This document shows positions 1,188-54,000 of a stretch of DNA of 64,000 nucleotides, in pieces (the first letter of the stretch is position 1; each line of letters opens with the position of its first letter). The notes beneath the pieces were generated by a model, which ran no database searches, was not told the DNA's origin, and saw nothing but the letters and a program-made list of their open reading frames with translations. Source of the stretch: the human T2T-CHM13v2.0 reference genome, Homo sapiens; the NCBI RefSeq assembly GCF_009914755.1, contig NC_060926.1; one strand, written 5' to 3'. Position numbers and translations under genes: made by a program.

Positions 1188-1414
1188 GTACCTTCCTTAC
1201 TTTCTCCTGCTTCAGCCAATGTGCCTTGGCTACTCTATCAAACTTTTCTAAGCTTCTACCCCATGCCAGTGTAGTGCCTAGTGCTGGAAACATAGTTACA
1301 AATCACACTTGCCCCCAGACTTGGAAGAACTAGGATAGTGGTTCTCAAGATGTGCTTCCCATGTCCCACCAGTATCAGCATCACTTGGGACCCTGTTAGA
1401 AATGCAGATTCTTG

Positions 1415-2118
<704 letters not shown>

Positions 2119-2879: not shown

Positions 2880-4445
2880 CATTTATTCCAGCTCTACTGA
2901 ATGGCTCCCCAAAGCCTAAAACAAATAATTATTACATGCATTAAGAACTAATATACAGACAACAATAGCTAAACAAGCAAACAAGCCAGCATATCTCTGG
3001 GTAAAGAGAGGAAACCTTTCTCTTATCTGACTTCTTACAGTGTTCCATTCTCTTTGTCCTTTTCTTGCCCGAATTTTTGGAAATGTTGTTTATATGCTTG
3101 TTCTTCATATTTTCCCTACCTTTTTCTTATACCCATACCGAAAAGGTATTGCCTCTGCACTGCAGCAAAATTGTACTTCTCAAGGCATCATTGTGCTTAC
3201 CTGGCAAAATCCAGTGGTCATGTCTCAGTGTTATCTTTCCTTGTCCTCTCATTGACAACTGACATAGGGATTCCTTCCTGTTCTTGCAACTTGACCTAAG
3301 TCTTTATTGCTTGCCCAATACAACTCTCGCCTGTTGATCCTTCTGCCTGTGTTAGTTGCTCACTCTTGTCTCTTTTGTTGGTTTCCCATCATCTCTCAAA
3401 ACTCTACCCCAAGGAACTCTCAGAACGCCCAAGGACTCCAGCTTCTGCTTTTGATCTACACTCACTCCATACTCATCTCATTCGATCTCACATCTTTAAA
3501 TTTCATGTACATGCTGATGAATCAATCCTGAATGTGTATCTAACACTAATCCTGTCCCTGGATTCCAGACCTTATACCAACTACCTACTGGGCATATCTA
3601 TATGAATATCCGTTAGGCATTGGAATATTTAAGTAAATAGTTAAAATTGACTTATTAGGAAGTTCTCCTGAAACAATGACCTCATCCCCTGCAAGCATGT
3701 CCCAGTTAGTGGCAGCTTCATTTTTCAAGTCCATAGTTTCAAAATTGTGGTATTCTCCTTTTATCTCTCCTTCTCTTACATGCAGCATCTCGTGGATCAA
3801 CAGCATCTACCTTTCCCCAAGCCACCCTTGCCCTTTGCTTGGATTATCACTGTTTACAGTTGCCTTTTGATTGACATCTCCCTGCTCCTCTTTAGGTTCC
3901 CTGGCTGTCTATCCTCAACATAGCAGTCAGAGTGATCCTGGTGAAGGAATAGATCCTGGCATTCTTTTGTCCAAACCCTGTCAATGATTTCCTTTCTCGT
4001 ACAGAGAAAAAGTCAAAGGTCTTCCAGTGGCTTATAAGGATCTCCATTATCTGACACCCCTGCTCATTTCTGGTTGCTTCTCTAACCTCATCTGATTATA
4101 TGCCCTCTGGAACTCTAGTTGTGCCACTCTGGCCTCTTTGCTATTTGCAGAGCCCTTGGACTCACTGCTTTGCCTAGGATGCTATTCTTTATATATACTC
4201 ATGTCCAGTTCTTGTACTTCCTTCTGCACTCAAATGATTCAAAAGGTCATTCTCATTGAGGCCATCTCTGATCAGCTTATTTAATAGAGCAACCTATTTC
4301 CTTGACGTCAACCCTACACCCCCCCTTATTCTTGCCTGCATTATTTTTTTCTCTCAGCACTTAACTTCCAATACAATGTATTTACTTATCAAATTTTCTG
4401 TCCTGTCTCCCTCCTCTAGAATGTAAGTTGCCTGAGAACAGAGGA
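2880..4445 (+). mobile_element. L2 LINE remnant
   Basis: L2-like text throughout, ending with the 3' motif ctagaatgtaagttgcctgagaacagg. Boundaries approximate. Confidence 0.7.
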
Positions 4446-13599: not shown

Positions 13600-14220
13600 A
13601 GTAGTTACTGTTAGTATTATTATTTCATAATATCTTTCTGTATGCTAAATCTAAACTCGTTCCTTATGCTAATTTATTTTTCCCCTGGTCATTACCCAGG
13701 GAGATAAGTACCATTCTTATTTCTATTTTTATAGATGAGAAAATTGAGTCACAGAGGTTCAGTGACTTTCTCAATATCACATAACCAGTAAGTGTCTGGA
13801 TTCCAAGCTCCTAATAAATCCTGCCACAGTTTGGTTTTTAAGGAATGATATGAAAATTTCACACAATGCACAGTTCATTTTTCTGCTGAGAAGCTCTGCA
13901 TCAAAAGTTTGTCTTTTTAGACTTAATGGGCTTAAAAGTAGAGGTAGAGTGAGGGAGTCTTTAATCATGGAGAGAGGATGACACATTTCTTGTAAGTCAG
14001 GCTTTGGAATCAGCTCTGGGTTCAAATTATGACTTCACCACTGACTAATGTGACCTGGACAAATTACTAAATATTCCAAACTTCAGTCGTCTCAATTAGA
14101 ACACAGGTATATGTTATTATGACAATTATAATTCCAAAAATCTGGTGGTAATGCAAATGATGTGCCTAGGATGATGCCTGCCATTTAATAACAGCTCAGT
14201 AAGGTTTGTAACACCAGTAT
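13600..14220. mobile_element. Two MIR SINEs (- at ~13600-13830, + at ~14000-14220)
   Basis: ttttatagatgagaaaattgag and ctgggttcaaat...tgtgacctggacaa core motifs. Confidence 0.7.
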
Positions 14221-14431: not shown

Positions 14432-14742
14432 ATTTTTATTTTTTTATTTGTTGTTCTTTTCTTTTTTTTTTTTGGAGATGGAGTCTCACTCTGTCACCCA
14501 GGTGCAATCTCCACTCACTGCAACCTCTGCCTCCTGAGTTCAAGCTATTCTCCTGTCCCAGCCTCCCAAGTAGCTGGGATTACAGGTGTGTGCCACCTCG
14601 CCCGGCCAATTTTTGTATTTTTAGTAGAGATGGGGTTTCACCATGTTGGCCAGGCTGATCTCAAACTCCTGACCTCCAGTAATCTGCCCATCTCGGCCTC
14701 CCAAAATGCTGGGATTACAGGCATGAGCCACCACACCTGGCC
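14432..14742 (-). mobile_element. AluSx-like element with short internal deletion
   Basis: Antisense Alu lacking the gctggagtgcagtg segment near 14500. Confidence 0.93.
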
Positions 14743-15249
14743 AATAATACTTTTGATAAAATCATCTGAAAAGAGTTAACTAGACCAAAACCCACCTGAA
14801 ATTATTTAAACTTATTTCCTCAGGAGTCAAGCTGCCTCTGATGGGTTATAATCATGTTATACTTTGTGAGTCAGTCAAGCTTAAAATCATCAAATCCAGT
14901 CCGATGCTTAAACACCCCAGACATTACCACTGTCCCTCTCCACTTCTCAGCATGGGGTAGTCATGAGGTTCCAAAGACAAGACCCCAGCCTCATTTACGG
15001 TTTTATCTTCCCTGCTACTGTATTGGCAGACACATATTACATGTTCTATAATGTATGTTGAAGGAAAACACACACAGGCACATGCATGCACACACATATA
15101 TGTATAATGTATAAATATTAGAACTGTGGTTACCTGAAAGGTTATCACACTACCCATGACTGGGCCCAATGTTGTGCAGCTAGCTGCCTCCCAGACTTGG
15201 ATGAGTATCTCCAGCTTCCTCTTACAATGTATTTTTCTCACGAATGTGT

Positions 15250-15480
15250 GTGGTAGTGAGATGGGAAATGAATGGGTTGGGAGTCAGACAGTGCTGAGCT
15301 CAAACCATAGAAAGGTTGCTTCTTAGCTCTGTCATGACTAACATCACCTCTCTGAGCCTTGGTTTCCTCATCTGTAAAGTAGGAGTAGTAATACTTGCTT
15401 TATTTATTTGTTTTGAAGATATGAGATAATGCCTGTGAAGTGTCTGGCGCTTAGTGGTATTTGAAAACAGCAGCTACTGT
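15250..15480 (+). mobile_element. MIR
   Basis: cctctctgagccttggtttcctcatctgtaaag core. Confidence 0.75.
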
Positions 15481-17530
15481 TAATAAGATCATACAACCAT
15501 GCTGCCTATTGATTTTCTTTGCCTGATATCCCTCTTCCTTGCCGATGGCTCTGCTATTGATTTGTTTGCCCTTTGCCTGGGGAATCTGGGCCAGTGTTAT
15601 AAATGTCAATGTTGACAAGGTAATGAAGTAAAAAGGATCCAAGCTAAGAGTAATGAACTCCCTGCGGCGGCCTTATAGGGACCCCTCTGAAGCTTGGTGA
15701 GAATGGAAGCACTGTATTGGCCAGAAGCTGAAAGAAACAAGTGGAACAAGCACAGATTAGAATTCTAGGTGCTTTCCCACACAGAAGGAGAGGGAATTGA
15801 GGCTCGAGGAGTGTTGTGTGGCCACTGGTTACTCATTTAGTCTACCAAGATTTTATTTTTGCAGGATGCCATTAATGATAATAAATTGAGTTTTAAAACA
15901 GATTAACATAACGTAAAGCTCACTGTCACTTAGGAATGATTGTATATGCCATTTATCCATTTCTAAGAATGATTTGACCTGAATCTGTGTATTTTTCCTT
16001 TACACTTGCACAATTATCATTGCCAGTGATCAGTGTCAGAGCTAGGGTCTTGTGGTTAATATTCTAAAGTTCTCTGCCTTTTTCTTGATAAAGAATCACA
16101 TGGCCTGCTTCTTAGTGAGGAAAATAAATAAGTAAATCATTCTACCTAGGAAATTCTAGTTTTAGTTAATTCCCTTAAAATCAACTGCTGCCTACTCTAA
16201 TCAACTCTAATCAATCATATATAAGACTTGAATATATGCCTTATCTTTCTCACTTATTTTCTTACCTTTTTCTTCAAAATGATTCCATAGAATATAAGCC
16301 TTGCACAGAGCATGCCTCCCATAAAAGATAAACATTATATAAATATTTGGAATCAGTAAATTGCTCCCTAACATTGTTTGTAGATAATTCATTGAATGCA
16401 TTATTGAATACCTATTATATACAAGGTGATATAATAAGAGAAAATATGAAAACTTTAAAGAAGTAAAGCCTATGGATCTTTGTTCCCAAAGTGATAAAAC
16501 AAGTATCTGTGAGGATAAGACATTTATTTAATTAGGATATAAATAGTTTTGATAAGTGCTTTACAGATGGAGTGTGCTTAATATTCATAAAAAGAAGAGA
16601 TCATTTCTAGCTGAGATGACCCAGAATGTTATTGTGTGGAAGATCACCTTGACTTTAGTCCTGAAGCACAGGTTTGACCTCAATAGATGGAGTACATTCC
16701 AGGAAGGAGGAATGGTGTGAACCAGGTAAGACTGTAGGAAAACAAAGATAGTAGGATAGAAACAGTAAATAGGCCATCTGAGAGGGTTTCATACATGCAG
16801 CAGAGTAGAGGGAGACAAGGGAAACAAGAACAGTCCATTGGGAGAATATTACAGAGGACATCCAGTGCTCTGCAAAGGCATTCAGAATCTATTGTGTAGA
16901 GAGGAGAGAGCATGGAAAGGAGCTCTCGTGGTCAGAGCTGCTGTTATCAGACTCTCTTGTTAGTAACAAGCAAGATAGAGGAAAGAGAGACTGGTATGCA
17001 GGCTATGCTAATGCCTAACCTTTGGATACGAAAGAGATAGCAATGGAACAGGGGAGCAGGTGCAGGTGCAGTTTGTAAAATAAGAATTGGAAGATTTGGG
17101 TAATTCACTGGGTAGGTGGGTGGCAGAGTACCCAGGGAAGGAATGGAGAGGACAAGAGGAAAGGAAATTACAGCAGATTTTTCCAGTCATTACAGAGGGA
17201 AATAAATTCATTCTGGTCTGGCCTGAGCCTGAGTTTACTGACTTGGGGCATAAGTTACAATGGATTATAAAGCTGATACCTTACCCTCTTCCTTTGAGCC
17301 AGCTGTCCAGTCCTGCTCAGCTGCTTCTGGATTTGAGAAATCCCTGTCATCAAGAACAGGGGGAAGAGAAGTGGATTGGATTGCTGTGAGGAGAGTCCAG
17401 TTGGGGGCCTTCACTGTGGCGATGTCCACAGTAGTCCACAGCTGCATGGGACAGATCTCTCCCAGCCTTGAATTTTTTACCATTGCCTGACTTGTATTTC
17501 TTATCTGTGTATGTAGCTGCTTCCTTGGGA

Positions 17531-17800
17531 AAAGTGTGGTCCTTGAAGGCAGGAACATTTTGTTGTCAATATTCTTATCACTCCCACTTTGAAACATGGG
17601 CCTTTGTGCTTTGTCTATGCTTCTATGTGTTTCATAATACACTTCTTCTGATTAGTAATGCATCACAGGTGGTAGACATGTTTTCAATTCAAGGGGGAAA
17701 TGCTTGCACTCCTATTCCTGATTTTAGGATCCCTACTAGTGTGACCAGTCATGCTAGTCTACTCAAGACTGCGGGATTCCCAGGGATGTGGGATTATAGG
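17531..17800 (+). repeat. 270-bp direct repeat, copy 1 (donor)
   Basis: Identical to 22961-23230 except at 17542 and 17796. Confidence 0.98.
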
Positions 17801-17848
17801 TCCTAAAACTGAAGCAGTCTTAGGAAAACCAGCACAGCCTGTCGCCTA
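17737..17848. mobile_element. MER81-like hAT-Blackjack MITE
   Basis: 112 bp with degenerate TAGGGTGACC...GGTCACCCTA termini (tagtgtgacc...gtcgccta) and the internal cccagggatgtggga...taaaactg motif. Confidence 0.7.
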
Positions 17849-18457
17849 AGCCACACTCAGTTCAGGGGTTTTGAATAGTTTAATGGAACTGGACCCAGGG
17901 CTTTGAATGCCAGATGAACAACTGAGTTTCATGCTTTGCCTAGCCACAGCTGAGTTCAGGGGCCAACATCCCTGAGGATATGCTGTGGTTTGAATAGGTG
18001 AGGTTAGAAAGGAGCGAGAATGAACCACTCAGCCCACTGACCAGCACTCACTGAGTCTCTGCCGGGGTGCAGCATAGAGCACCAGGTGTGCTGAGATGAC
18101 AGGAGGGGGGTGTGGGATTGTTTATTCCCTTAAATATTCAGTGCCCTGGGTGGAAACCCAAAATTGTGTGCAAGCAGTAATTACAGAACAATTGATCTTT
18201 AAAGCATGGAACTTGTATTCAAAGGGCATCATTAAAAGACTAGAGAAAGGAGAAATCAGAAGTAAAACTATGTGTAACCAAGGTCCTGTTTCCCTACTGA
18301 TTTTGGGTGGAAGGCCAGATCTTCTCTATGAAGGATGACACACTCTGTCTAGCGTATGCAGAGATGCTGTCTTCATCAGAGAGAAGTCCTGCAAATATGC
18401 ACATTTCAGATGCAGATCACATCAGCTGCTTTAGGTCTGTGAACAGGAAGTTCCATA

Positions 18458-18811
18458 TGTGTACGTCTGTTCTCACACTGCTAATAAAGATATACTTGAG
18501 ATTGGGTAATTTATAAAGAAAAAGAGGTTTAGAAGACTCACAGTTCCACGTGGCTGGGGAGGCCTCACAATCATAGCAGAAGGTGAAGGAGGAGCAAAGG
18601 CACATCTTACATGGAGGCAGGCATGCAGTGCAGAAGGGGAAAAAGCCCCTTATAAAGCAATCAGATCTCATGTGAACTAACTCACTATCACAAGAACAGG
18701 ATGGGAGAAACTACCTCCATGATTCAATTCTCTCCCTCCCAAAATACATGGGGATTATGGGAACTACAGTTTAAGATGAGGTTTGGTTGGGGACGGAGCC
18801 TAACCATATCA
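18458..18811 (-). mobile_element. THE1 (THE1C-like) solo LTR
   Basis: gttctcacactgctaataaaga...gactcacagttccacgtggctggggaggcctcacaatca...aaccatatca. Confidence 0.9.
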
Positions 18812-18830
18812 ATATATATCATCCATTCTC

Positions 18831-19121
18831 TTTTTTTTTTTTTTTTTTGAGACTATCTCCTTCTCTTGGCCAGACTAGAGTGCAGTGGCATGATTTTAGT
18901 AACCTGTGCCTCCCAGGCTTAAGCAGTCCTCCCACCTCAGCCTCTCAAGTAGCTGGGAAGACAAGGTCATACTGCCAAGTACAGCTAATTTTTGTATTTT
19001 GTATAGAGATGGGCTTTCACCATGTTGCCCGGGCTGGTCTTGAACTCATGGGCTCAAGCAATCTATGTGTCTCAGTCTCCCAAAATGCTGGGATTACAGG
19101 TGTGAGCCACTGTGCCCAGCC
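18831..19121 (-). mobile_element. AluJ
   Basis: Diverged antisense Alu with J-type segments (ggcttaagcagtcctcccacc, gggctcaagcaatc). Confidence 0.9.
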
Positions 19122-19339
19122 TGTATGTGCCAATTCTAACAAGAGCTTACTTTATATTGGGAGCTGCAGAGGTTACTTTGGCTTGAGGTGGGAGATAGGG
19201 GCTTTGGTCATGTGTGTGGGTAGAGTGCTTCTCAAAACATGAGTGAAACTTTTATACACGGAGACACCAAGCTAAGCTTTCAGAGTTTAATATGGAATTT
19301 CCAGTTTAAATTATCTTCTTTATAACTCTGGGTATAGCA

Positions 19340-20150
19340 ATGTTTTTTTGTGTGTATACATGTATATGTATGTCCATGTGTGGTGATGTACATCCTGGTA
19401 CAGGTATGTATGTGTACGCATATGTGTATGTTTGCATTTGTCCATGTGTGTACACATATTGGTACATGTACACATATATTCGTGCGTGGGTTTGTACATG
19501 CATGTATATGCATATGGGTGCATGCTTGCATATGTCCATGTGTCCACATGCATAAACACGTGTGGGCAACTGTGTGCTATAACTGTATTGTATATATGTA
19601 TATCTGGATATCTATGTTTCTGCGTAGTTGTGTATATACATATGTCTGTGTGTGTACAGGCACATGTATATGTGTGTGTGTAAATGTATGTCTATGCTTG
19701 CAAATGTACATGTACACATATGTTTCTTTCTGTATAGTGTCTGTGAATACATGTACATGCATGCCCATGCACGTGCATATGTGTATGCATGTGTGCATGC
19801 ATGTTCCACTCTGTGTGTATATGTGTATGTGCATATCTGTCATGTATGTCTGTGTGCATGTACATGTGTGTACCTATATGTGCATATTTCTATGTATATG
19901 TGTATTTGAATATCTGTACATGCATGTCTGTATGCATGCACATGTGTAGTCCTGTACACATGTATGTCAGTGTTTTGCATGCATATGTATGTGTGCATTC
20001 ATGTTTCTCTCTGTGTGTATGTGTATGGGAATACTTGTACATGCATGTCTCTGTGTGTGCATTTGTTTGTATGTGTATGTGCATATTCCTTTCTGTGTGT
20101 ATGTATGTATTCATATCTGGACATGCATGTCCATGTGTGTGCCCATGTGT
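19340..20150. repeat. ~800-bp degenerate alternating purine-pyrimidine (TG/CA/TA) block
   Basis: Seen directly. It generates all the Cys/Val/Met/His-rich ORFs in this region. Confidence 0.95.
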
Positions 20151-20760
20151 TTTGCTTCTTTTCTGAGTAGTCACATTTCCCAATTTGCTTTTTCTCTGTT
20201 ATATCATGTGATCTCTCATTCTTGCTAGAGGCTTTACTCATGCTTCTGATGATCTTGGACTGTGCTCATGTTTCAAAAGGAAGTGTCTGGAATGCATTGC
20301 CTTGGAGCCACCCTGAAGAGTAGGGCTGGGCCTTTAGTTAGATAACTCCAATGTCTTTATCTTTAGCTCATTTATCTTGGGACAGGCACATTTCCTATAA
20401 AAAAAACTTTCCCATCGCTTGCTTAGAGAGAAAGAGGTTCTGAAAGTCGTAGTGCAGACAAGAGCTGGTGGATGTCAGGGTCTACTAGGTAAAAGTCCCT
20501 TTATGTCTCATTTTTTGGTGAGCACCCTTGCCTCATCTATCAACATTACTCTCACCTACCTGTAATAACCCCTCAGTCTCATAGCACTTCTTTATTCATT
20601 TTCCAAGCAGTATAGTTATTTGGGGGATATAAAGGGTACTTTTTCGAACTATTTTCTGTTTCTCTAAGATTGCTTTACTTGCGAGAGAATTGCTGTGAAG
20701 CTGGCTGGGAAAGAACAAAAGACTTTTGGATGCTAAGTCTTCTAAATGTAGAACCCACTC

Positions 20761-21173
20761 ATATCAGTCAGGGTTCAACCAATGGAGCATGACTAGTAGG
20801 AGATAATATATTGAGATTTATTGCACAGAATTGGTTCATGCAGTTATGGAGGCCAGGTATGATGTCTGAAATCCACTGGGTAGGCCATCAGGAAGTGCAG
20901 CTGGAACTCTCAGGCATGAGTGGAAGTTGCTGCCCCTAGGTGGAATTTCTTCTTCTTTGGGAAGTCTTAAAAGCCATTCTGCTCATAAGGTCTTGCAATT
21001 GATTGAATGAGACCCACACAGATTATCTAGGATAATTTCCCTTACTTAAAGTCAACTGATTGTGGATGTCATTCACGTTTACAACATACCTTTACAGCAG
21101 TACTTGGATGAGGGCTTGATTGAATAAGTAGGGACTATAGCCTGCTCAATTTGACACATCCTCAGACCATTAT
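20761..21173 (-). mobile_element. MLT2D-like ERVL LTR
   Basis: tatcagtcagggttcaacca...gattgaatgagacccacacagattatctaggataatttcccttacttaaagtcaactgattg. Confidence 0.8.
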
Positions 21174-21185
21174 AATACCCTCTCT

Positions 21186-21308
21186 TTATTTTTTATTGAA
21201 GTGAAACGCACATAAAATTAACCATTTTAAAGAATACAATTCAGAGGCATTTAGTATATCCACAATATTTTGCAACAATTGTTTCTATCTAGCTCCAAAA
21301 CATTTTCA

Positions 21309-21344
<36 letters not shown>

Positions 21345-21752
21345 CTCAGTACCCATTAAACAGTCACATCTCATCTTCACCCCTCCTCTTAGCTCCTGGA
21401 AACCACTAAGCTGCTTTCTGTCTGTATTGATTTACCTATTTGAGATATTTCCTATAAATGGAACCATACAATTTGTCACATTTTGTATCTCACTTCTTTC
21501 ACTTAGCATAGATTTGATATTTATAATATTGCAGCATGTAACAGTACTACATTCCTTTGTATGGTTGAATAATATGTTGTATGCATATGTCAGGGTGTTT
21601 TTTAAAAAATCTATTGTTCTTTGATGAACATTTGAATTGTTTCCATATTTTGGCTGTTGTATAAATAGGGCTGCTGTGAACATGTGTATATATGTATTTA
21701 TTTAAATACCTGTTTTTAATTATCTTGGGCATATCTCTGGGAGGGGATTTGT
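21186..21752 (-). mobile_element. L1MB 3' end with embedded (CA)17 at 21310-21343
   Basis: Antisense L1 3'UTR (cataaaattaaccattttaaag...); the minus-strand ORF gives L1 ORF2 C-terminal-like MFTAALF. Confidence 0.85.
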
Positions 21753-22889
21753 TGCCTTTTGAAAGCCATTAACACGCGAGGGCTAGCCCAGTGGAATCAA
21801 TCAAGGAAATTGTATATTACAAACTGTGCTTCCCACACTCTTACCATTCTCCTTGTCAAAACAAAGAGATACTTAAAGATGATTCTGGTTGGATTTATTC
21901 TTTTAATTATCCTACATTTGTGTATCCAAGATCAGGGATGCCACACTTTACCCTATCAATTCTCAAATATAAGTTAATGAGGATAAGGATAATCATGGGG
22001 TAACATCCCAAGGTTATTCTCTAATATGTGGTTCAAGGAGATTTTGTTAACAACTAGACTTGGGGCAAGTGGTGGAATTGGAGGCAGGAGTGTCTCTGCA
22101 CTCATAGAGCACTGTGACAGTGAGCAGCTGCCTTACATCTCTTGGTTGCAAATCTATCCTCTTTGAAATGTCAGAGACTGCCAGATGATCTTTGGAGTTT
22201 ATTCTAGTTTTGAACATTATATGATTTTGTGATGCATGAAAATGTTATGAACTTTGGCTTTGAAAATTCTGATGTCAAATCTGACCCCAAAGTCATATTT
22301 CATGCTACTTTTTAAAAGGGGAGAAAAAGAGAATTGAAACCCAATTTGCTGACCCAAATTGATAAATTTCTGGGCTGCAAGCAAACCTACTTTTCAGTAG
22401 GTGATGAAAAAGAAATTGAGCTTGATGATATTTACAGTTAAAACAGTAACATGCACTTAATAATCACATGTAAACACAAGTGTGAATATCTTATGATATT
22501 TTATACTTTTATCCTGTGGAATTCCAAACTCCCCCTGCTTACCTCACCGGGAGGCATAGTTCCTTACCTTTATAACTGACACCTGTGCATGTACTGACCA
22601 CATGTCCTGGGCTTCCCATGGAAGTGCTCCTTTCATTGACTGCTGGCTGCAAACACATACCCAGCCACTTTGACTGTTAATGAGCTCTCATTCTCATTTG
22701 AAATATATCATTACTTCTGTGTGTGGTCATCCTGGATACTCTTAATCTTTTTCCTTTTTCTTGGCATAGTGAAAAAAATATGGAATTTGGAGTCTTATGC
22801 CACCAACTTCCATTGTAGTCTGGACTCTGAAGTATGGTTGTTAAGTGGACCCTGAAATCTTTTTGACAGAAATTCCTAATTTATAGTAC

Positions 22890-23370
22890 TGTGGTGACTG
22901 AAGCTGTGTAAGCTCTTAGTTCCAACTTTGAGTCCCAGATTCCTTCAACCTGCCCCTCCTAAAGTGTGGTCTTTGAAGGCAGGAACATTTTGTTGTCAAT
23001 ATTCTTATCACTCCCACTTTGAAACATGGGCCTTTGTGCTTTGTCTATGCTTCTATGTGTTTCATAATACACTTCTTCTGATTAGTAATGCATCACAGGT
23101 GGTAGACATGTTTTCAATTCAAGGGGGAAATGCTTGCACTCCTATTCCTGATTTTAGGATCCCTACTAGTGTGACCAGTCATGCTAGTCTACTCAAGACT
23201 GCGGGATTCCCAGGGATGTGGGATTCTAGGCCTCAGTTTTCTTATCTGAAAACCAGGAATCATCATAGCAACCTACCAGAGTTGCTCTGAAGATTAAATA
23301 GCTGTGTATGTATGTATTATATGCTTTTACACATACCGCTTAGTGCACAGTGACTGCTAAATATTTAGGT
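22890..23370 (+). mobile_element. MIR interrupted by copy 2 of the 270-bp repeat
   Basis: Left flank tttgagtcccagatt...cctaaagtgtggtctttg; right flank ctaggcctcagttttcttatctgaaaa...gaagattaaat. Confidence 0.65.
22961..23230 (+). repeat. 270-bp direct repeat, copy 2 (recipient)
   Basis: Offset 5430 bp from copy 1; 253-bp perfect core. Confidence 0.98.
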
Positions 23371-23699
23371 GCCATATGGAGGCAATTATAGCTGGGGAAT
23401 CTGAAAATGAGGATGAAAGAAGGAACTCCTGTGAAATTCATTCTAGAAAGAAAACTTGGCAGAAAAGAAACTTCACACCTCCTATTCTCTCTGTTTTACC
23501 ACATTTTCATTCCTGGCATGGGAGACCCCGTGTACAGCCTGGTCTTGCAGAGCCAGGCCCTGTAAAGTCAGGCAGTGGAGGTGGAATGGGACAGACAGGC
23601 GAGTCCAAGACCTGAAAAGCCAGGATTGTTTTTTGTTTTACTTTATCTAAAATGCAATGAGAAGTCATCAATGATTTTTTTTAAAGAAGATTGGTTTCT

Positions 23700-24827
23700 T
23701 TTTCTTTTTTAATAATTTTAACTTTTATAATATTTTAGATACAGAGGGTATATGTGCAGGTTTGTCACTTGGGTATATTGCATGATGCTCAAGTTTGGGA
23801 TATGATTGACCTCATCACCCAGTATTGAGTATAGTATTCAACAGTGAGTTTTTAAACCCTTTCTCCCTTTTAATAGTCCTCAGTGTCTATTGTTGCCATC
23901 TTTTTGTCCATCCTAATGTTTAGCTCCCACTTATTAGTGAGAACATGCAGTGTTTTGTTTTCTGTTCCTGTGTTAATTCATTCAGGATAATGACTTCCAG
24001 CTGTATCCATGTTGCTGCAAAGGACTTGATTTCATTCTGTTTTATGGCTGCATAGTATTCAATAGTGTATATGTACCACATTTTCCCTTTCCATCCACCA
24101 TCGATGGACATGTAGTTCGATTCCATGTCTTTGCTATTGTGCATAGTGCTATAATGAACATATGAGCACATGTGTCTTTTTGGTAAAACAATTTATTTTC
24201 TTTTTTAATATATACCTAGTAATGGGATTGCTGTGTTGAATGGTAGTTCTGTTTTAATATCCTTGAGGACTCTCCAAACTACTTTCCACAGTGGCTGAAC
24301 TAATTTGGATTTCTACCAACAGTGAATAAGCTTCTTCTTTTCTCCAAGCCTCATCAATGTTTGTTGTTTTTTGACTTTTTAATAATAGCTATTCTGATTC
24401 ATATGAGATGGTATCTCATTGTGGTTTTGATTTGCATCTCTCTAACAATTAGTGATGTTGAGCATTTTTTCATAAGTCTGTCACTTGTACGTCTTCTTTT
24501 AAGAAATGTCTGATCATGTCCTTTGCCCTTTTTTTTTAGTAAGGTTAACTGTTTTTAGCTTGCTGATTTAAGTTTCTTATAAATTCTGAAAATTAGACCT
24601 TTGTCAGATGCATAGTTTGCACATATTTTCTCCCATTGTGTAGGTTGTCTATTTACCCTGTTGATTTCTTTTGCTGTGCAGAAGCTCTTTAGTTTAATTG
24701 GGTTACATTTGTCAATTTTTGTTTTTGTCACAATTGCATTTGAGGATGTGGTCATAAATTATTTGTCAAGTCTAATGTCTGAAATGGTGTTCCTAGCTTT
24801 TCTTCTAGGATTCTTATAGTTTGAGGT

Positions 24828-24860
<33 letters not shown>

Positions 24861-25262
24861 GAGAGAAAGAATCTCGCTTTGTCACCCAGGCACCCAGGCT
24901 GGAGTGCAGTGGCAAAATCTCAGCTTACTGCAACCTCTGCCTCCCAGGTTTCAAGTGATTCTGCTGTTTCAGCCTCCCAAGTAGCTGGGACTACAGGCAT
25001 GCACCATCATGCCTGGCTAATTTTTGTATTTGTAGTAGAGACGGGGTTTCACCATGTTGGTCTCCAACTCCTGACCTCAAGTTATCCGCCCGCCTTGGCC
25101 TCCCAAAGTGCTGGAATTACAGGCTTGAGCTACCACACCCAGCCTTACATTTAATCTTTAATCCACCTTGAGTTAATTTTTGTATATTGTGAAAGGTAGG
25201 GGTCCAGTTTCATTATTCTACGTATGGATAGTCAGCTATCCCAGTGCCATTTATTGAATATG
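23700..25262 (-). mobile_element. Old L1PA (L1PA15/16-like), 5'-truncated, interrupted by an Alu
   Basis: Minus-strand ORF2 remnants (MWYIYTIEYYAAIKQNEIKSFAATW; [20 protein letters not shown]); 3'UTR near 23700. Confidence 0.9.
24833..25144 (-). mobile_element. AluS inside L1
   Basis: T28 tail, full dimer, small tandem duplication cacccagg x2. Confidence 0.93.
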
Positions 25263-27250: not shown

Positions 27251-27559
27251 ATATGCAGGCACTATATTCATCCCCATTTTATAAATAAGAAAATTGAGCC
27301 CAAAAGATATCATGTAATCTGTCCAAGGATACAATGTTAATGTTGAACCCTGGAAGTCTGATTCCTTGGTGATAAAAACCTGTTCTAAAGGGGAAACTGT
27401 GTACATATTTAATTGAAGGCAGGTGTAGAGAAGAAGAAAGTTTATTTGTTAGAAGAGAGTTGAGGCAGGGACTGCCTATCCAGCATTCAATATTCACTAT
27501 CTTTTTCTTAATTAAATACAGTGGTGTTTATGGTTTGTTGTTTTTGTTTTTGAGGAAGT

Positions 27560-30289: not shown

Positions 30290-30606
30290 TTTTTATTTTC
30301 TTTTTTCTTTTTCTTTTTTTTTTTTAAGACAAAATCTTGCTCTGTCACCGAGGTGGGAATGCAATGGCCTGACGATGGCTCACTGCAGCCTCGACCTCCA
30401 AGTTTCAAGTGATCCTCCCGCCTCAGCCAACTGAGTAGCTGGGACTACAGAAACACACCACCACACCTGCCTAATTTTAAAATTCTTTATAGAGACGAGT
30501 CTTGACATTTTGCCAGGGCTGGTTTTGAACTCCTGGGATCAAGCAATCCTCCTGCCTTGGCTTCCCAAAGTACTGGGATTATAAGAGTGAGCCACAGCAC
30601 CTAGCC
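30290..30606 (-). mobile_element. AluJ
   Basis: Antisense diverged Alu (cactgcagcctcgacctcc). Confidence 0.9.
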
Positions 30607-31387: not shown

Positions 31388-32293
31388 GAGAAATAGGTGG
31401 TTAGTTACAAGCAAAACAGGAACCCTTTCTTCAAGAAACTGATGATCTAGAGTGGTACATAAAGGAAGACTTGATAACCACACACATGGACACACATGCA
31501 ATTATGAAGTTAGTGGAAGAATCAGAAGGGAAATCAACTGTTTTTAGTGATAGAGAATAAGACAGTGGGAGGAGGGAGGGGTGCTCCTTAGGAAGGTGCC
31601 CAAGGAAGTCCTCTGTGAGGAAAGGACTTTCAGTCTGGCACCTGAAAAAAAGGAGCCTGTCATACAATGCTTGGGGGAAGGCCAATGGGCACTGTGAAGA
31701 GTCGGTGCATGGGCCATGCCTTGTAAGGCTTGTGGAGTCACTGTAAACAGAACAGACATCGTGATGTGTGGCAACCGGGCTTGCATTGCCATTCCGGTTC
31801 CATATCAACAGTTCATTTAGTTTTAGGTATCAAAATGCTGAGAATAATGAAGAGGAATATTCCCTGTGCACTCCTGGCAAAGTTGTAAGAAATATTAATG
31901 AAGTTCTAATCAGAACTTGGTTTGCTTCATCAAAGAGAGCGTTCTGGATAACATGTTGTGGATGTAAATGTAAAAGTAAAGAAAATATGTTTATCAAGGT
32001 CAAGAATGAAGAAGTTTGAAATGCATGCACACACACACACACATACATGAATGTCACTGATTAGATGCCATTATTGTTGATATTAAGAGATATTTATTTT
32101 TTCATTCACTAATTTATTTTACTAATATTGGCTTGACACTTACTCTGTATTGGACACTGTGTTCTGGTTGATGTGAATGAAGTCTTGAAAAGGACAGCCT
32201 TTCTTAAAGCAAGAAGGGGAGGACAGACAAAATGGCAAAGCAAAGGCAGCCTAATAGAATTAAGCAAAATGCCTTAGGAATATGGAAGTTCTT

Positions 32294-32591
32294 TTTTTTT
32301 TGGTTTCTTTTGAGACAATTTTGCTCTTGTCACCCAGGCTGGAGTGCAGTGGCCCAATCTCAGCTCACTGAAACCTCTGCCTCCTAGGTTCCAGTGATTC
32401 TCCTCCCTCAGCCTCCCAAGTAGCTGAGATTACAGGTGTGCGCCACCATGTCCCGCTAATTTCTGTATTTTTAGTAGAGACGGGGTTTCACCGTGTTGGC
32501 CAGGCTGGTCTCGAACTCATGACTTCAGGTGATCCACACGCTTCGGCCTCCCAAAATTCTGGGATTACAGGCATAAGCCACCGCACCTGGC
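32294..32591 (-). mobile_element. AluSq/Sx-like element
   Basis: 19-bp TSD ta(g/a)gaatatggaagttctt at 32275-32293 and 32592-32610. Confidence 0.95.
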
Positions 32592-32822
32592 TAAGAATAT
32601 GGAAGTTCTTAACTTGCTTTAACTCCTACCTATCTCTTCAGTGTCATCTTTTGCCTTATTTCAGACAGAGTTAACTTCATTTTTCAGTGTCTTAAACGTG
32701 ACACACTACTTCTCTCTTTACTTTGTAAAGGTTTTGTTTTGTGCCTGAAACATGTAACCATCTTCTATTCATCATTTAAGCCTTTATTTGAATATATTTA
32801 TTCCAAGCAATCTTTTTTAAAT

Positions 32823-39247: not shown

Positions 39248-41192
<1,945 letters not shown>

Positions 41193-43843: not shown

Positions 43844-44168
<325 letters not shown>

Positions 44169-46099: not shown

Positions 46100-46730
46100 A
46101 GAAGAAACAAGATTTAGTGAGCACTTACGTTGTATCAGCCACTGTTGTAAAAACAAGTATATTAACTTGTATAATTCTTACAAAACCTTTTAAGGCAAAG
46201 ACTATCATTTTTACCATTTGACAGAGAAGAAAGTTTAAATGACACCTGACAGGACTAATGATGTCATATGGGGGCTTGAGTTCTGTTGCTGCCTGCACAT
46301 CACCAATCTTGATATTTTTCAAGCAGCAGAGAGGAGTAATAGAAAGACTCTGAGTGCAGTAGTTGGATAGCTTTGGTGTGAATTTTGCCTCTTTCATGAA
46401 TGATCTGTAGGACTTGGACATGTTATTTGATTGTTTCAATCTAGTTTCCTTATTTGCCAAAGGGGAACAACAATACTCATGTTGTAGTCATTTTCCAATG
46501 ATCAAATGATACAACAATAATAATCATAGTGGCTACTTATAAGTGTATAGTAGCCACAAGGTCCTGAAAATTTAGCATGCATTATATACACACATATAGG
46601 TATTACTACTCTCCTTTAATACATGTGCAAATTTATATTTAAAAAGAGGTCTTCCTCAATGTCACCAGACCAACAAACAACAGAGCAAAGACTCAGATTA
46701 AGGCCTGCGTACCCTTAAACTTGATGCTTT
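46100..46730. mobile_element. Cluster of MIR fragments
   Basis: ccatttgacagagaagaaa, ttggacatgttattt...agtttccttatttg motifs. Confidence 0.55.
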
Positions 46731-47299: not shown

Positions 47300-49852
47300 G
47301 TAAACAATTCATTGTTGTTGAATGCAAAAAGACATAAACGATCCTGTATTCTGGAGAAAGTTATCTGAAGCTTTCCTTAATTATGGCCATCCAGCACTCA
47401 GAGCCCCCTACATTACCTGCAAGACTGTGGGCTTTTCATGAGTGGTCCTGTGTGCTGAATGATCAAAAGCACCCTCTGCCGACACCAGCAGCTCTGCGGA
47501 TTCATCTTGCCTCTGATTCATGAGGCAGCTGAGCACTGAGTCAACAGCTGGAGCATTTACTTACAGACAGCAGCTCACATTCTGCTCATTTCATACAGTT
47601 TTCACTGTTTCTAAAATGCAAACAAAGCAAACCAATAAAACTAAATTCGGGGAAGAAGCCATGTTGGGGCAGACAATGGGTGAAGCCGCAGTCCTGTGGA
47701 GTATTCCCCACCAAGTGATTTGGGTTAGGTCTAATGAGCAGGGTGAAGACCACAGAACTGTAGTTGCAAATCTCACTGCACATATGGTTACAGATGCAGA
47801 CCTTGTCTGCTCTGCTGTGAGCTCAGCTCTCCTGCTTTTCCATTTTCTCATTGCCTGTTGGCCTCCCCACTTTTTTATTCTGCTTCAGCTTGGCTTCCTC
47901 CTGCTGTGGCTTGATTTTTCCATCTGGGTCTACCAACACAGAATGATTCCCAAGCTTTGCTTCATGTAAGATGCCTGTGAAAGACCAAACTCATTTCTAT
48001 CTGAGAAACATAACCTTAGCAGGTGCCGCCATCCCTGCCTTCTGGAAGCCTAGATGAACTGATCCTTGGCAGATGGCGTTTTCCTTTTAAAAACCTGCAG
48101 TACCTCTCCATTTAGCTTATATTTAATGAGCCTTGCTATGGGTCAGGCTCTGTGCTAAGTAGAGGAATATGGGGATGAATGAGCCAGCGAGGAGATGGGT
48201 AAACAGACAACAAGACAACCAGTGAAGTCTGTTCTGAGGGAGGAGGTACAAATGGCTATGGGAGCACAGAGGTGCACTCCTGAGAACATGAAGAAAGGAA
48301 AACCACGCCTTTCCTTAAGGAAGTTCCTAAAACTTCTGACCTGAATTTTTGCTCCAGAGAAGCTGGACCACCTTAATTTTTGTTTGGCATAGAGAAATGT
48401 GGGAAAGAATTTTGTGCCTATTTCTCTTTCAATAATTTCCCATTTGACAAGTGGAAAAAGAAAGACTTTTGTGACTGCTGACTCCTCTCCAGCTATTTAC
48501 GTGCTCTATGAGTCTCTTTAAGGACAGGGAAGTCATCTGACCCCCTAGGAAAATTCCTGGAGGCTTGCACAGCTGCTGACTCTGACTATCCCATGCATTG
48601 AAGGAGTAGGAACCAGTTTCCTATTTCATCTCTTAATGCAGCATCCCACTCATGGGAATCACTCACTACCACCCAGTTTATTCATAGACTTGCTAACTTA
48701 GATGATTTTACTCTTACTTGTTCTAACATAGTTGTAGAAAATGCCACAAAATGATTTAGGAACATATATTTATAAAAATAAATCTTAATCATGGCCTCAG
48801 TTCTAAAAAAAATTGGTGGAAGACATGCAATCCATTTATGAAACTTACAAATGTCCATGCTTCTGTAAATCATAATTCATTATGCCCAAAAATAGCTTTC
48901 TGAAATAGACACTTTTCCTCAATATCTCCTCTCCTTAGAAAAATGAAACAGCAAAATATAGAACTTATTACAAGTAAATTCTTTGCTTATCATACATATT
49001 TTTAAATATTTTCATGCTGAAATACTACATTCATGCAGAGACACATCTGCCGCTTCCATGTTTTCACTATTCCTTTATTGATATTGCCTTTCATGTTCCA
49101 AGAGCCTTCCTGGCAAAGGTAGGGGTGAGACCCTAGGGTAAGCAAGAATAGCTTGCAACATAATCCAGTTAAATCACACACAGTCAGAATAAAGGGGAAT
49201 CTGATGGGTCTGGACAGAGGTTTGCCATCTCAGTTGACTTTGAGTTTCTCAAGAACAGAGGCATCTTGTCACTGAATGAGCCTTAGTTTAACAGAGTTCA
49301 GAGCAGTGTAAAAATGTTCTAAATTTATAGCGATCATTTCATTATTAATGAAAATGTTTTAGCAAAACAAACGTAACATAAAACAAATTTACATCAGGAG
49401 AGCATGTGTTAAGATGTGAGATATTTAAGTACCATTTTCTAAGATGCTAAAGTAACTCTGAAATACTTAGTTGTGAGGTGACAAAAAAATGGGCTAATTA
49501 CAAATGATTCTGACACATTATTTATAGCAGACTTGAAAAATTTACAAAGAAACCCCTTGCTAGTCCAATTCCATATGTATAAGATGGTATTCTCAGTTCT
49601 TTAAACAAAACCTTCTATGGTTGAAAGTGTCTCTCGCCCCCAGTTAGTCTGAAAGAAGGAGGTTTTATAGTAATTGAAGACAGGGCCTTTCAGCAGGTCT
49701 TTATTTCTGGGCAGGTGGCAGAGTTGCATTTGTGTGATTTGTTTTGTTTTGCTTTCTCTCCTACGCATTCCCCTCATCTGGAGGGAATCCACTCTCCTGA
49801 GCAGATGACTCATGACGATTTCCTTCTCTCTTTCCTTCCCCTTTCTCTCCAG

Positions 49853-51040: not shown

Positions 51041-54000
51041 AGTTTAAAATAGTACCCGGTTCAATGAAAGAGCCTAAACCATCTTAACTCAGCTTTAAAA
51101 CAAAAATTAAATCAGGAAAAAATGAAAAAAAAACTGCATGAAAGAAGAAAAATACCAAACAGAATTCTTCCCTTCCATTCACTCACTAAAGACCTGGTGA
51201 AGATAGTTAATTCAAATTTGCAAGTTTCACATTTTTTAACATCAAGCTATTCTCCAAGAAGTTTAGGATGCATTAACATAAGTGAAATGGTCACCTCTAG
51301 CTAACTAGCATTGCTTGATTTCAGAGGAGCCCTTAGGTTCTGTAGCATACCACATTTTCAAATCTGCTATACCCTATATACATAAAGACCCTTCCAAACA
51401 TCTTTTTATAGGCTTAAACTCCCAAAAGAGGTGGTGACAAATTTCAGGGTCTTTGTCCCTTTTGGTAACAAAGCATTGAAAACAGTCATTCCTTCAAGAA
51501 GGCACCTTGAGCTCATCCATGGGGTGGCGGTAAAGATCTTAATGATTTTTCTGTGGCAATATGCATCATTCTTTGTCCTGGGCCATCTTGGAGAAAAAGG
51601 TAAGGAGAAGACAATGTAAATGCTCCAAGATAGTGGAAATGCTCATGTAATGATTCTTAGGTGTGGAAAATACTTGCTGATTCTCTTTATGAGGCAGATT
51701 CAATTTAGAAAACAATGACCACAGCTCTATTTGCCATCCTTGACAGTTAGCAGACATTCCAACTTGTGCTTAGGGTACACTGTCTCTCGCCTCTCACAAT
51801 GAGGAACTTAGTTGCTTCATTCCATTTCAAACACAGCTTTTCTTTCAGTTTCAGAGCTTATGAGTTAAGGATTTAGTTTGCAATCATATTTCTCTATTTT
51901 AAGATGTTGTTTCAAATGCATATTCTCTCCTCGAAATTTTCTGTGGATTTGAGCTCAATCGCTTTATCATCTACATGATATCTTTTGGCTAGTACATTTA
52001 TTTTAAAGTGATTTTAACCATGATATCATTTCTCTCCTTTTAGTTTTAATAAGATGAATGATTCTTTAGTAAGATGAAGGATCTTTAAACACTGTTTTCC
52101 CCTGCCCTTTCCTCCCTTTCTTCAATTTTCATTTTTGAATTTTCTATTTCCATAAAAAGGCTATATAAATCAGCCTTTTGCTTGGCTATATATTCCTTTG
52201 TCCCCTGAAATAAAAGTCACCATGAAGTGTAGTAGGTTTAGCCTGAAGCAGCTCCAATAATGAAATAGAAAGGCAAAGGAAGGTATGAGTAATAAAGCTG
52301 GAACTCTTCATTATTCAATCTTTGAGCAGTGAGGACTATGTTTTGCTGACATAGTGCTAATAGAAGAAATGGAGACTAGCAAAGGCTAACTCAGAGTATT
52401 TGATTTTCTCATCTAAGTATATATGCTTGTAGATTGTCCTGTAGGATGAAGAATCTGTGAAGCTCTATCCTGACCACAATGGCACTACAAAATCAACTGG
52501 CATCTTCCTCACGTGTGTAGACTCCATGCACACTACATACCACAGACCTAAATGTAGATGCCAGGACAGTGCCGTCTACACGTCACTCCTATAAGTAGTC
52601 TCAGGGCTAAAGCAGAATTATTTTTACAGGGTTGAATTATTTCATAACCCCAGAGAACACTAACTTTCACTAGATATATATGAAATGCAAGTGATCCGTA
52701 CCCTCCAAAGTAGAATGTAATTTACAATTAGAAATCATGCTAACTCTGACTGTCTTTCCTCAGTGGTACCAAGATCTATGTAGTTTTATGTAATTGTTCA
52801 ATTGTGTGAGTGTTTTAATCCTTCTGCAATTATCATCTCGAAGGAGACTTTGAAAGCATCTTAATCTCTCTTTAACCATTTTTTTTTTCTTTTTCCTACC
52901 ACATTCAGGTTTCCCAACTACATGCTCTGGCCAACTGGGCCACCATGATCTCTTCCACTTAAATCCTCAGCCTTCAATAACTGCTGTTTACAAAAAGATC
53001 TTATGGAATATGGATCACTTTACAGTAAAGCCAAAAGTACTTGTGAAATTTCACATTTTAATGGAGCTGTTTCATTGATATTTTTTTCCACCAAACAAAT
53101 CTATTTATGTAAGCAACAGTATATTTGCTTACTCTAAAATATATTTATCCTACTGCATCATTTATTGCATATATAGCCTCAATTGCCATCTTTATGAAAA
53201 TTTGTCTGGAGAAATAGACATTTGTCATTTCTATAGACATATTTTTATGACTAACTTTGCCTCTTCTATTTACCCTCTGCTGTATGCAGAAGATTTTAAG
53301 GATCCTAGCGGTGATGTTTTAAAACAACTTTTTTCCTCTCCTTAGTAATAACAGAGATGGTATTAACTTGACTTCTACCTTTTGTCAGACTCATCTCCAC
53401 CAACGGGTAGCAAGAGCAGGATAGAACAAAATAAAGAGATTGTTTTTCTTTTTTCATTCATGAAGTATTTATGGAATGCCAATGAGTGCCGGGCTAGGCA
53501 TTGGGTGAACATATATAAATTACACCTTGTTTTTGCCCTTGGGGAGCTCAAAGTCTAGCTGGCAAGGCATGTATTGTTGCAACAGGGCCACACATAAAGT
53601 GTCCTAGAATGCAGCACAAGGTCCCGCACAATTATTTTTGTGAAGCATCTGCCAGACTGAAAGAAATGTAAATTTCTGGGAAATATCTGTTATTTTTTAA
53701 ATTACTGCTTCCACCTTCTGTAAGCTGTTTTGTTTCTCCTCCTCAAAGTAGATATCTATCAATGCATATAGATTTCTGTAGAAAGGGGTGGATTGACTTT
53801 TAGGAACAGTAAGAATAGATGGTCTCTGTCTCTGCCATACATTTGAGGAGGCTGAATTCTCTACATTCTTGTTTCGGGTCAGGTTGGGGGATTCCAAAAG
53901 TCTTGCCTCCCATGAGTTGGACCTAAGAGTGTCCACTTTGGCCCCTCTCCTTCCCTTTTCTCAGTTCTTCCACAGCCATGTGTTTATGACCTATTGCATG

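What the first reader, a model, noticed from the sequence alone, without database searches (positions are those of the whole stretch)
17531..23230. Very recent 270-bp templated duplication with identifiable donor, recipient and microhomology junctions
Seen: 17531-17800 and 22961-23230 are direct repeats 5430 bp apart. They share a perfect 253-bp core and differ at only two bases, 12 nt from the left end and 5 nt from the right end. There is no poly(A), TSD or TIR, so this is not a transposon copy. Inference on direction: in copy 1 a MER81-like MITE (17737-17848) continues past the right boundary and L2-like text continues past the left, so copy 1 is the donor. In copy 2 the MITE is cut in half and the flanks are two halves of a MIR (…cctaaagtgtggtctttg / ctaggcctcagttttcttatctg…), with an estimated ~20 bp of MIR missing. 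The terminal mismatches fit imperfect microhomologies used in a switch-out/switch-back event (FoSTeS/MMBIR or synthesis-dependent repair). Zero core divergence suggests a lineage-specific or polymorphic event inside a neurodevelopmental gene.
Basis: partly seen in the sequence, partly recalled or inferred. Interest (0 to 1): 0.8.

Follow-up and report, generated by a model that had tools for sequence, protein, structure and literature searches.

The report
Short copied DNA patch in intron
A stretch of about 260 bases in an intron of the human CNTNAP5 gene was copied and pasted 5.4 kb downstream beside an old SINE fragment, which looks like an ordinary DNA-repair scar with no sign of function.

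Summary
Window 17531-17800 and 22961-23230 are direct repeats with 268 of 270 bases identical. The 253-base core is perfect, and the two mismatches lie 12 and 5 bases from the ends. These are the only two places found in the 3.1-Gb assembly, and the only pair above 90% identity in the window.

There is no target-site duplication, poly(A), terminal inverted repeat, coding remnant or known RNA.

Copy 1 as donor is supported at the right boundary only:
- A degraded palindromic element spans the boundary in copy 1 (19 of 2000 shuffles reach its score).
- In copy 2 a MIR-family fragment starts exactly at the boundary (E 2.5e-8).

Best reading: a templated patch or dispersed duplication made during break repair or template switching, a known kind (class 2 templated sequence insertion, MMBIR-type). 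Identity only bounds divergence to 1.18% or less. That is compatible with a human-lineage event but does not show one, and polymorphism is untested. Interest is low.

The parts
17531..17800 (+). Copy 1 of the 270-nt direct repeat; inferred donor (template).
   Evidence: One of only 2 places in the assembly.
17543..17795 (+). 253-nt core that is identical in both copies. This is the part that was certainly copied. It has 1 CpG and 41.5% G+C.
22961..23230 (+). Copy 2 of the repeat; inferred inserted patch (recipient site). Its core is 22973-23225.
22961..22972 (+). Left junction tract: 11 identical bases, then the mismatch at 22972 (T; C at 17542 in copy 1). It is either recipient-native homeology used for annealing, or copied sequence carrying one substitution.
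   Evidence: The chance of 11 or more matches out of 12 is 2.2e-6, so it is not coincidence. About 0.09 such sites are expected per 2 x 10 kb on both strands.
23226..23230 (+). Right junction tract: the mismatch at 23226 (C; A at 17796), then 4 identical bases. Probably native to the recipient.
   Evidence: The family-profile alignment starts at 23225 and matches the C at 23226. The chance of 4 or more matches out of 5 is 0.016.
17731..17867 (.). Degraded palindromic (MITE-like) element that spans the right boundary of copy 1. Arms are 17731-17772 and 17814-17867, with the axis near 17793. The copied core ends at 17795, inside the 41-nt spacer.
   Evidence: Arm-to-arm alignment score 12 against 7.29 +/- 1.41; 19 of 2000 shuffles reach it. 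The same test at copy 2 gave 1832 of 2000. The inner arms were also found by the repeat finder. As a hairpin it is not unusually stable (z = -0.87).
23225..23362 (+). Fragment of a large interspersed repeat family (MIR SINE by recall, inverted relative to the + strand). It starts abruptly at the right edge of copy 2.
   Evidence: A profile built from 31 genomic copies hits at positions 154-273 of 312, E 2.5e-8 in the window. Alignment. The seed motif has 1446 genome matches against 0 for the control.
22860..22960 (+). Left flank of copy 2. It is unique sequence and not detectably part of the same repeat family.
   Evidence: Unique in the assembly at the sensitivity.

Best explanation
Copy 2 (22961-23230) is a short templated insertion, that is, a small dispersed intrachromosomal duplication. 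A break or stalled fork arose beside or inside an old MIR-family SINE in this CNTNAP5 intron. It was repaired by copying about 253-270 nt from a template 5.4 kb upstream on the same strand (copy 1, which stayed intact). The copy was then rejoined to the other side of the break, with loss of an unknown amount of original sequence.

Shown:
- Two copies only.
- Sharp junctions.
- No transposition hallmarks.
- An old element continuous across the right boundary in copy 1.
- An old repeat cut off at the boundary in copy 2.

Inferred:
- An 11-of-12 homeology at the left junction and a 4-of-5 one at the right guided the switch out and back.
- Alternatively, error-prone synthesis left one error near each junction.
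- The event happened in the germline within roughly the last 10 million years.

No function is expected. The site is about 12 kb and 15 kb from the nearest exons (hub annotation).
For: - The repeat and its two near-terminal mismatches are real.
- Only two places in the 3.1-Gb assembly. The flanks of both copies are unique at that tool's sensitivity.
- It is the only pair above 90% identity in the window.
- No TSD of 5 nt or more, no A/T run, no poly(A) signal. No TIR.
- 0 Pfam families in the 11 scanned of 30 open frames of 70 aa or more. No Rfam family.
- Direction: the palindromic element across copy 1's right boundary is reached by 19/2000 shuffles, against 1832/2000 at copy 2. The MIR-family fragment starts exactly at 23225, at profile position 154, E 2.5e-8.
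- Both differences lie within 12 nt of an end, P 0.0079 if placed at random. The copy-2 base at 23226 matches the family profile.
- This kind of event is documented. Class 2 templated sequence insertions have no TSD and no poly(A). They show microdeletion and microhomology, leave the donor intact, and experimental inserts measure 73-414 bp (PMC5110952, parts 1-2 read). MMBIR junctions show microhomology, templated insertions and raised point-mutation frequency (PMC4352052, passages). Germline templated insertions number about 100 per person (PMC8421209, passages).
Against: - The left flank of copy 2 is not detectably the missing half of the MIR-family copy (142/500, 450/1000, 381/1000). A simple 'insertion into an intact SINE with a ~20-bp loss' is therefore not shown. 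The SINE may have been truncated earlier, which would weaken the boundary-coincidence argument.
- The left boundary gives no information on direction.
- The palindrome support is moderate (P about 0.01). Its family identity is untested, and its hairpin is not unusually stable.
- No empty allele, outgroup or read-level evidence could be examined. The age, the true microhomologies and the deletion size are all inferred.
Confidence: 0.7

Rival explanations
1. An older two-copy duplication whose interior was recently homogenised by gene conversion. On this reading the near-perfect identity says nothing about the age of the duplication.
For: The only differences sit at the two ends (positions 12 and 266 of 270). 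That is what a conversion tract covering the middle of an older, diverged pair would leave. The copies lie in cis, in direct orientation, only 5.4 kb apart.
Against: A conversion tract would have to reach within 12 and 5 nt of the ends of the homology, leaving almost no anchoring homology. There is no diverged homology beyond the ends. The base at 23226 fits the flanking repeat family rather than a diverged copy. An initial templated duplication is still needed in any case.
Confidence: 0.1
2. The patch was copied from RNA rather than DNA. Intronic CNTNAP5 pre-mRNA was reverse transcribed at a break, as proposed for class 2 templated sequence insertions (endonuclease-independent, LINE-1 reverse transcriptase acting in trans).
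For: The donor lies in a transcribed intron on the sense strand of the same gene (hub annotation). The junction features match class 2: no TSD, no poly(A), short homologies, donor intact (PMC5110952). The insert size of 253-270 nt lies within the 73-414 bp reported for experimental inserts.
Against: Nothing in the sequence separates an RNA template from a DNA template. By my recall CNTNAP5 is mainly expressed in neurons, so germline transcripts should be scarce. A nearby cis donor in the same orientation is what DNA template switching predicts, whereas the published insertions came from distant loci.
Confidence: 0.1
3. The direction is reversed: copy 2 is the original and copy 1 is the inserted patch.
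For: The left boundary tests favour neither copy. The left flank of copy 2 is not recognisably the interrupted half of a repeat.
Against: The palindromic element would then be a chance match between inserted and resident sequence (19/2000). The MIR-family fragment would end at the duplication boundary by coincidence.
Confidence: 0.06
4. Assembly artefact: copy 2 does not exist in the sequenced genome.
For: None from any call. It is listed only because no reads could be examined.
Against: The copy carries two private differences and is embedded in unique flanks. By my recall, a 270-nt repeat 5.4 kb apart is far shorter than the long reads used for this assembly.
Confidence: 0.02

Closest known systems
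Class 2 templated sequence insertion (polymorphism), TSI/TSIP, of Onozawa and Aplan
   Same: The donor is intact and there is one extra copy. There is no TSD, no poly(A) and no poly(A) signal. Short homologies occur at the junctions and sequence is probably lost at the target. The insert size is within the reported 73-414 bp.
   Different: The published cases were defined by donors in distant regions, often on other chromosomes, and were argued to be RNA-derived. Here the donor is 5.4 kb away in cis, in the same orientation. Polymorphism is untested.
MMBIR / FoSTeS templated insertions at rearrangement junctions
   Same: A template switch to a nearby sequence and back. There is microhomology or homeology at the junctions, and the base differences cluster at the junctions, as expected of error-prone synthesis (passages in PMC4352052; PMC8421209).
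   Different: It is a single simple insertion with no larger copy-number change. No second template was found. The germline MMB-TIs catalogued by MMBSearch are inverted copies of templates within 100 bp. This one is direct and 5.4 kb away.
Synthesis-dependent microhomology-mediated end joining / polymerase-theta templated insertions
   Same: A 3' end anneals at a short homology, is extended on a local template, dissociates and is joined to the other end.
   Different: The yeast templated insertions in the abstract listing (PMC11724301) are mostly about 5-34 bp, and by my recall polymerase-theta inserts are similarly short. This patch is about 253-270 nt.
LINE-1-mediated retrocopy (class 1 TSIP) or transposon copy
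   Same: A single extra copy of unique sequence at a new site.
   Different: TSD, poly(A), poly(A) signal and TIR were all tested and are absent.
LTR pair of a retroelement (two direct repeats around about 5 kb)
   Same: Two direct repeats 5.4 kb apart at 99% identity.
   Different: No flanking TSD. By direct reading the repeat ends are not TG...CA. No retroelement domains in the 11 of 30 open frames scanned. The interior holds an Alu-like copy and simple repeats. One 'LTR' would continue into a palindromic element.

Membership tests
Class 2 templated sequence insertion (PMC5110952) | The inserted sequence is templated from elsewhere in the genome, and the donor locus stays intact | tested here: met
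   Two copies only. Copy 1 is continuous with its flanks.
Class 2 templated sequence insertion (PMC5110952) | No target-site duplication of 5 bp or more, no poly(A) tract, no poly(A) signal | tested here: met
   The longest flank match is 4 nt. There are no A/T runs of 6 or more and no AATAAA.
Class 2 templated sequence insertion (PMC5110952) | End-joining marks at the junctions: microdeletion, microhomology, or non-templated bases | tested here: inconclusive
   There is homeology of 11/12 at the left and 4/5 at the right. The repeat fragment on the right is cut off. Without an empty allele, the deleted sequence and the true microhomologies cannot be read.
Class 2 templated sequence insertion (PMC5110952) | Donor in a distant region; insertion polymorphic in people | not testable with these tools
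   The donor is only 5430 nt away in cis, so 'distant' is not met in the authors' sense. No population data were reachable.
MMBIR/FoSTeS templated insertion | Microhomology at each template switch | tested here: inconclusive
   Same as above. At the right junction the unambiguous overlap is at most 1 nt (the T at 23225).
MMBIR/FoSTeS templated insertion | Raised point-mutation frequency near junctions | tested here: inconclusive
   Both differences lie within 12 nt of an end (P 0.0079). Recipient-native homeology explains this equally well.
MMBIR/FoSTeS templated insertion | Replicative origin (stalled fork or one-ended break) | not testable with these tools
   This cannot be read from a single allele.
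LINE-1-mediated insertion / retrocopy | TSD, poly(A) tail, TTTT/A target | tested here: not met
DNA transposon / MITE copy (the 270-nt unit itself) | Terminal inverted repeats, TSD, many copies | tested here: not met
   No TIR, no TSD, two copies in the genome.
MIR SINE (right flank of copy 2; family name recalled) | Significant similarity to a profile of family copies | tested here: met
   Profile positions 154-273, E 2.5e-8. The seed motif has 1446 matches against 0 for the control. That this family is the one called MIR rests on my recall.
MIR SINE (left flank of copy 2) | Significant similarity to the left part of the same profile | tested here: not met
   142/500, 450/1000 and 381/1000 shuffles reach the score. 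There is no nhmmer hit. Of 8 control copies, 6 passed at 4/1000 or lower; these controls were chosen from profile hits.
MER81 (palindromic element at 17731-17867) | Similarity to the family consensus | not testable with these tools
   No repeat library is available. The genome search found no other copies, but it is insensitive to old repeats. Only the palindromic symmetry was shown.
L2 3' end (left boundary of copy 1; family name recalled) | Similarity to a profile of family copies that runs across 17531 | tested here: not met
   No nhmmer hit. Local alignment across the boundary is reached by 87/1000 shuffles, and the flank alone by 307/1000 and 813/2000.

The most novel reading that the evidence does not exclude
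The insertion arose on the human lineage after the split from chimpanzee and may still be polymorphic. It would then be a datable natural example of a long (about 253-nt) cis template switch. On this reading the donor 5.4 kb away was picked by an 11-nt homeology, and copying stopped in the spacer of a palindromic element. With an empty allele in hand, both junctions and the accompanying deletion could be read exactly.
Probability: 0.35. Interest if true: 0.3.

Novelty: new member of a known kind. Interest (0 to 1): 0.15.

Why it matters
It matters little in itself. The site is deep in an intron, about 12 kb and 15 kb from the nearest exons, and nothing coding or structured was found there. Small templated insertions are a documented class of germline variation. 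Its modest value is as a clean single-event example with an identifiable donor. If an empty allele exists in apes or in human haplotypes, the junction homologies, the deletion size and the near-junction base changes could be read directly. That would inform how long-patch template switching works.

Tried and rejected
1. LTR-pair reading: rejected. There is no TSD, the ends are not of LTR type, no Pfam domains were found in 11 of 30 open frames, and the interior holds Alu-like and simple repeats.

2. LINE-mediated or transposon copy: rejected.

3. 'Left flank of copy 2 is the other MIR half': tried four ways and not significant. These were nhmmer with filters off and local alignment to the profile consensus with shuffles over three windows. 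Two competing, equally weak placements appeared (22875-22916 and 22963-22975). Neither can be trusted.

4. My own impression that the first 70 nt of the duplicate are themselves MIR-like: tested and rejected (277/1000, 301/1000, 225/1000).

5. L2-like continuity at the left boundaries: not significant for either copy.

6. Hairpin stability of the palindromic element: unremarkable (z = -0.87; 36 of 200 shuffles fold at least as well). I do not claim that a hairpin caused the switch.

7. Second templates (a complex event): none found within 16500-24500, the window or the genome.

8. Single-sequence nhmmer of both contexts against the window plus 31 loci: only self hits.

9. Whole-genome searches for relatives of the palindromic element and of the flanks: only self hits. 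The tool is insensitive to old repeats.

11. Literature on this locus: a search for CNTNAP5 + human-specific + insertion listed 7 papers. Judged by title and abstract start only, none is about this site, and none was opened.


Full report
**1. The observation**

The repeat finder on 16500-24500 returns one high-identity family: 17531-17800 and 22961-23230, 270 nt, direct, 5430 nt apart, 99% identity. I read both regions and aligned them with 100-nt flanks. Identity is continuous across the 270 nt and disappears on both sides.

A script found exactly two differences, at repeat positions 12 (17542 C / 22972 T) and 266 (17796 A / 23226 C). The 253-nt core 17543-17795 is identical to 22973-23225. 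The 7 bases outside each end agree at 1 of 7 on the left and 2 of 7 on the right.

In a whole-window run this is the only pair above 90% identity. The other 9 direct families are Alu-like or tandem, at 60-90%.

A search of the whole 3.1-Gb assembly that holds the window found the 270 nt at these two places only. The flanks of both copies are unique at that tool's sensitivity. The tool warns that its counts are lower bounds and that it misses old diverged repeats. This excludes a young multi-copy family but not ancient relatives.

**2. What it is not**

- The longest flank-to-flank direct match over 26 x 19 choices of insert ends is 4 nt.
- Neither junction has an A or T run of 6 or more, and the insert has no AATAAA.
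- The unit has no terminal inverted repeats (no inverted pair of 30 nt or more in 16500-24500).
- Of the 30 stop-to-stop frames of 70 aa or more overlapping 17400-23400, I scanned 11 in Pfam. None matched.
- No Rfam family reaches its gathering score in 16500-24500.
- The 5.2 kb between the copies holds an Alu-like copy (18830-19163), a TG/CA-rich imperfect repeat of about 0.8 kb (19331-20148) and a (CA)17.

So this is not an L1-mediated retrocopy, a transposon copy or an LTR pair.

**3. Which copy is the original: the right boundary**

I aligned 17720-17795 with the reverse complement of 17796-17870. This gives arms 17731-17772 and 17814-17867 with score 12, against 7.29 +/- 1.41 for shuffles; 19 of 2000 shuffles reach it. 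The same test at copy 2 gives 6.0, reached by 1832 of 2000. The inner arms were also reported by the repeat finder.

The element is thus whole in copy 1 and halved in copy 2. Its axis is near 17793, and the copied core ends at 17795, inside the 41-nt spacer. As a DNA hairpin it is not unusually stable (-16.4 kcal/mol; z = -0.87; 36 of 200 shuffles fold at least as well). I therefore treat the coincidence of breakpoint and axis as noted, not as a cause. The name MER81 could not be tested.

At copy 2, the right flank belongs to a large interspersed family.
- A genome search with the flank found a 76%-identical relative on another chromosome (L006).
- A 26-nt stretch of L006 has 1446 genome matches (729 + 717) at up to 1 mismatch, against 0 for the reversed control.
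- A profile built from 31 copies hits window 23225-23362 at profile positions 154-273 of 312, E 2.5e-8. It also hits 17 other places in the window at E up to 1.
- The alignment begins at 23225 and matches the C at 23226.

By recall this is the MIR SINE, lying inverted. An old repeat that is cut off exactly at the duplication boundary is what an insertion site looks like.

**4. Which copy is the original: the left boundary**

Copy 2's left flank gives no profile hit even with filters off. Local alignments to the left part of the profile consensus are reached by 142/500, 450/1000 and 381/1000 shuffles.

The same test on 8 other copies in the window gave 4/1000 or lower in 6, 45/1000 in one and 163/1000 in one. 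These 8 had been picked from profile hits, so they are biased towards detectability. No left half lies elsewhere nearby on that strand.

So 'two halves of one MIR with ~20 bp missing' is unverified. Either a larger deletion accompanied the insertion, or the SINE was already truncated, or that half has decayed beyond recognition.

For copy 1, I seeded a second family with a short recalled motif (637 genome matches against 0 for the control) and built a profile from 30 copies. It hits neither copy's context. A local alignment that crosses 17531 is reached by 87/1000 shuffles. The flanks alone are reached by 307/1000 and 518/1000, and their last 50 nt by 813/2000 and 1627/2000. The left boundary therefore says nothing about direction.

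**5. The two mismatches**

If two substitutions fell at random in 270 nt, both would lie within 12 nt of an end with probability 0.0079. Two readings explain this.

- (a) The terminal tracts are native to the recipient and merely resemble the donor: 11 of 12 at the left (chance 2.2e-6 per site, about 0.09 such sites expected within 10 kb on either side) and 4 of 5 at the right (chance 0.016). A repair end searching locally would then have picked this donor because of the 11-nt match. The agreement of 23226 C with the family profile favours this reading at the right junction.
- (b) All 270 nt were copied, and error-prone synthesis left one error near each switch. This is a recognised signature of MMBIR-type events (passages in PMC4352052; the primary paper by Carvalho et al. 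2013 was seen only in that reference list).

Both readings belong to the same mechanism class, and I cannot separate them without the empty allele.

**6. Mechanism and its relatives**

The best-supported account is a templated patch.
1. A break or stalled fork arises at about 22972/23226.
2. A 3' end anneals 5.4 kb upstream.
3. About 253 nt are synthesised.
4. The new strand is released and joined to the other side.

This matches the published class 2 templated sequence insertions in junction features, intact donor and size (73-414 bp in experiments; PMC5110952, parts 1-2 of 4 read). It differs in that the donor is local and in cis. Those authors favour an RNA template, which I cannot exclude here because the donor lies in a transcribed intron.

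It also matches MMBIR/FoSTeS templated insertions. The germline set catalogued by MMBSearch, however, consists of inverted copies of templates within 100 bp (PMC8421209, passages). People carry on the order of 25-30 TSIPs and about 100 MMB-TIs, so the kind is common.

**7. Age**

Zero differences in 253 nt give a one-sided 95% upper limit of 3.0 events, or 1.18% divergence. Counting both mismatches gives 0.74%, with an upper limit of 2.33%.

With a recalled rate of about 0.5e-9 per site per year on each copy, these correspond to about 12 million years or less, and to a point estimate of about 7 million years. With a flat prior, my hand calculation puts the chance that the event postdates the human-chimpanzee split between about 0.26 (mismatches counted) and 0.8 (core only). 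Ongoing conversion would make any such date too young.

'Very recent' and 'polymorphic' are therefore possible but not shown. No outgroup, pangenome or read data could be reached with these tools.

**8. Verdict**

This is a real, clean, two-copy templated duplication of a known kind in deep intronic sequence. It has a probable donor and recipient but unverified junction details. One search for this locus listed 7 papers, judged by title and abstract start only. None deals with this site. Interest is low.

Noticed in passing
window 19331-20148 and 21310-21343: A TG/CA-rich imperfect repeat of about 0.8 kb (periods near 22-24 nt and many degenerate copies) and a perfect (CA)17 lie between donor and recipient. 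Tracts of this kind are known to impede replication (recalled). No link to the duplication was tested.
   Followed up: no
window 17793-17796: The copied core ends 2-3 nt from the symmetry axis of the palindromic element 17731-17867, inside its 41-nt spacer. The hairpin is not unusually stable. This is a single coincidence and was not evaluated genome-wide.
   Followed up: partly
window 63618-63817: Three tandem copies of a 66-67-nt unit at 82-88% identity (family D10).
   Followed up: no
window 13609-13836, 13985-14073, 15267-15469, 46110-46225, 27253-27368, 59572-59657 and others: Further copies of the same interspersed family as copy 2's right flank (MIR by recall). The profile gives 18 hits at E up to 1.
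   Followed up: partly
window 1400-2052, 14505-14749, 18830-19163, 24854-25186, 30309-30606, 32289-32602, 39510-39829, 43844-44149, 59039-59353, 62634-62951: Alu-like copies in both orientations, 60-90% alike. One (18830-19163) lies between the two copies of the duplication.
   Followed up: no
window 4165-4427, 32095-32197, 48096-48176, 53443-53525: Hits of the second family profile (LINE-2 3' end by recall), with E from 5.5e-6 to 7.3e-3.
   Followed up: no
window 22875-22916: A weak, non-significant resemblance to profile positions 111-154 of the MIR-family model. It ends exactly where the right-flank fragment resumes, at position 154 (142/500 shuffles). If real, the insert would be about 308 nt and would include 44 nt of unknown origin (22917-22960). 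It cannot be told from noise here.
   Followed up: partly
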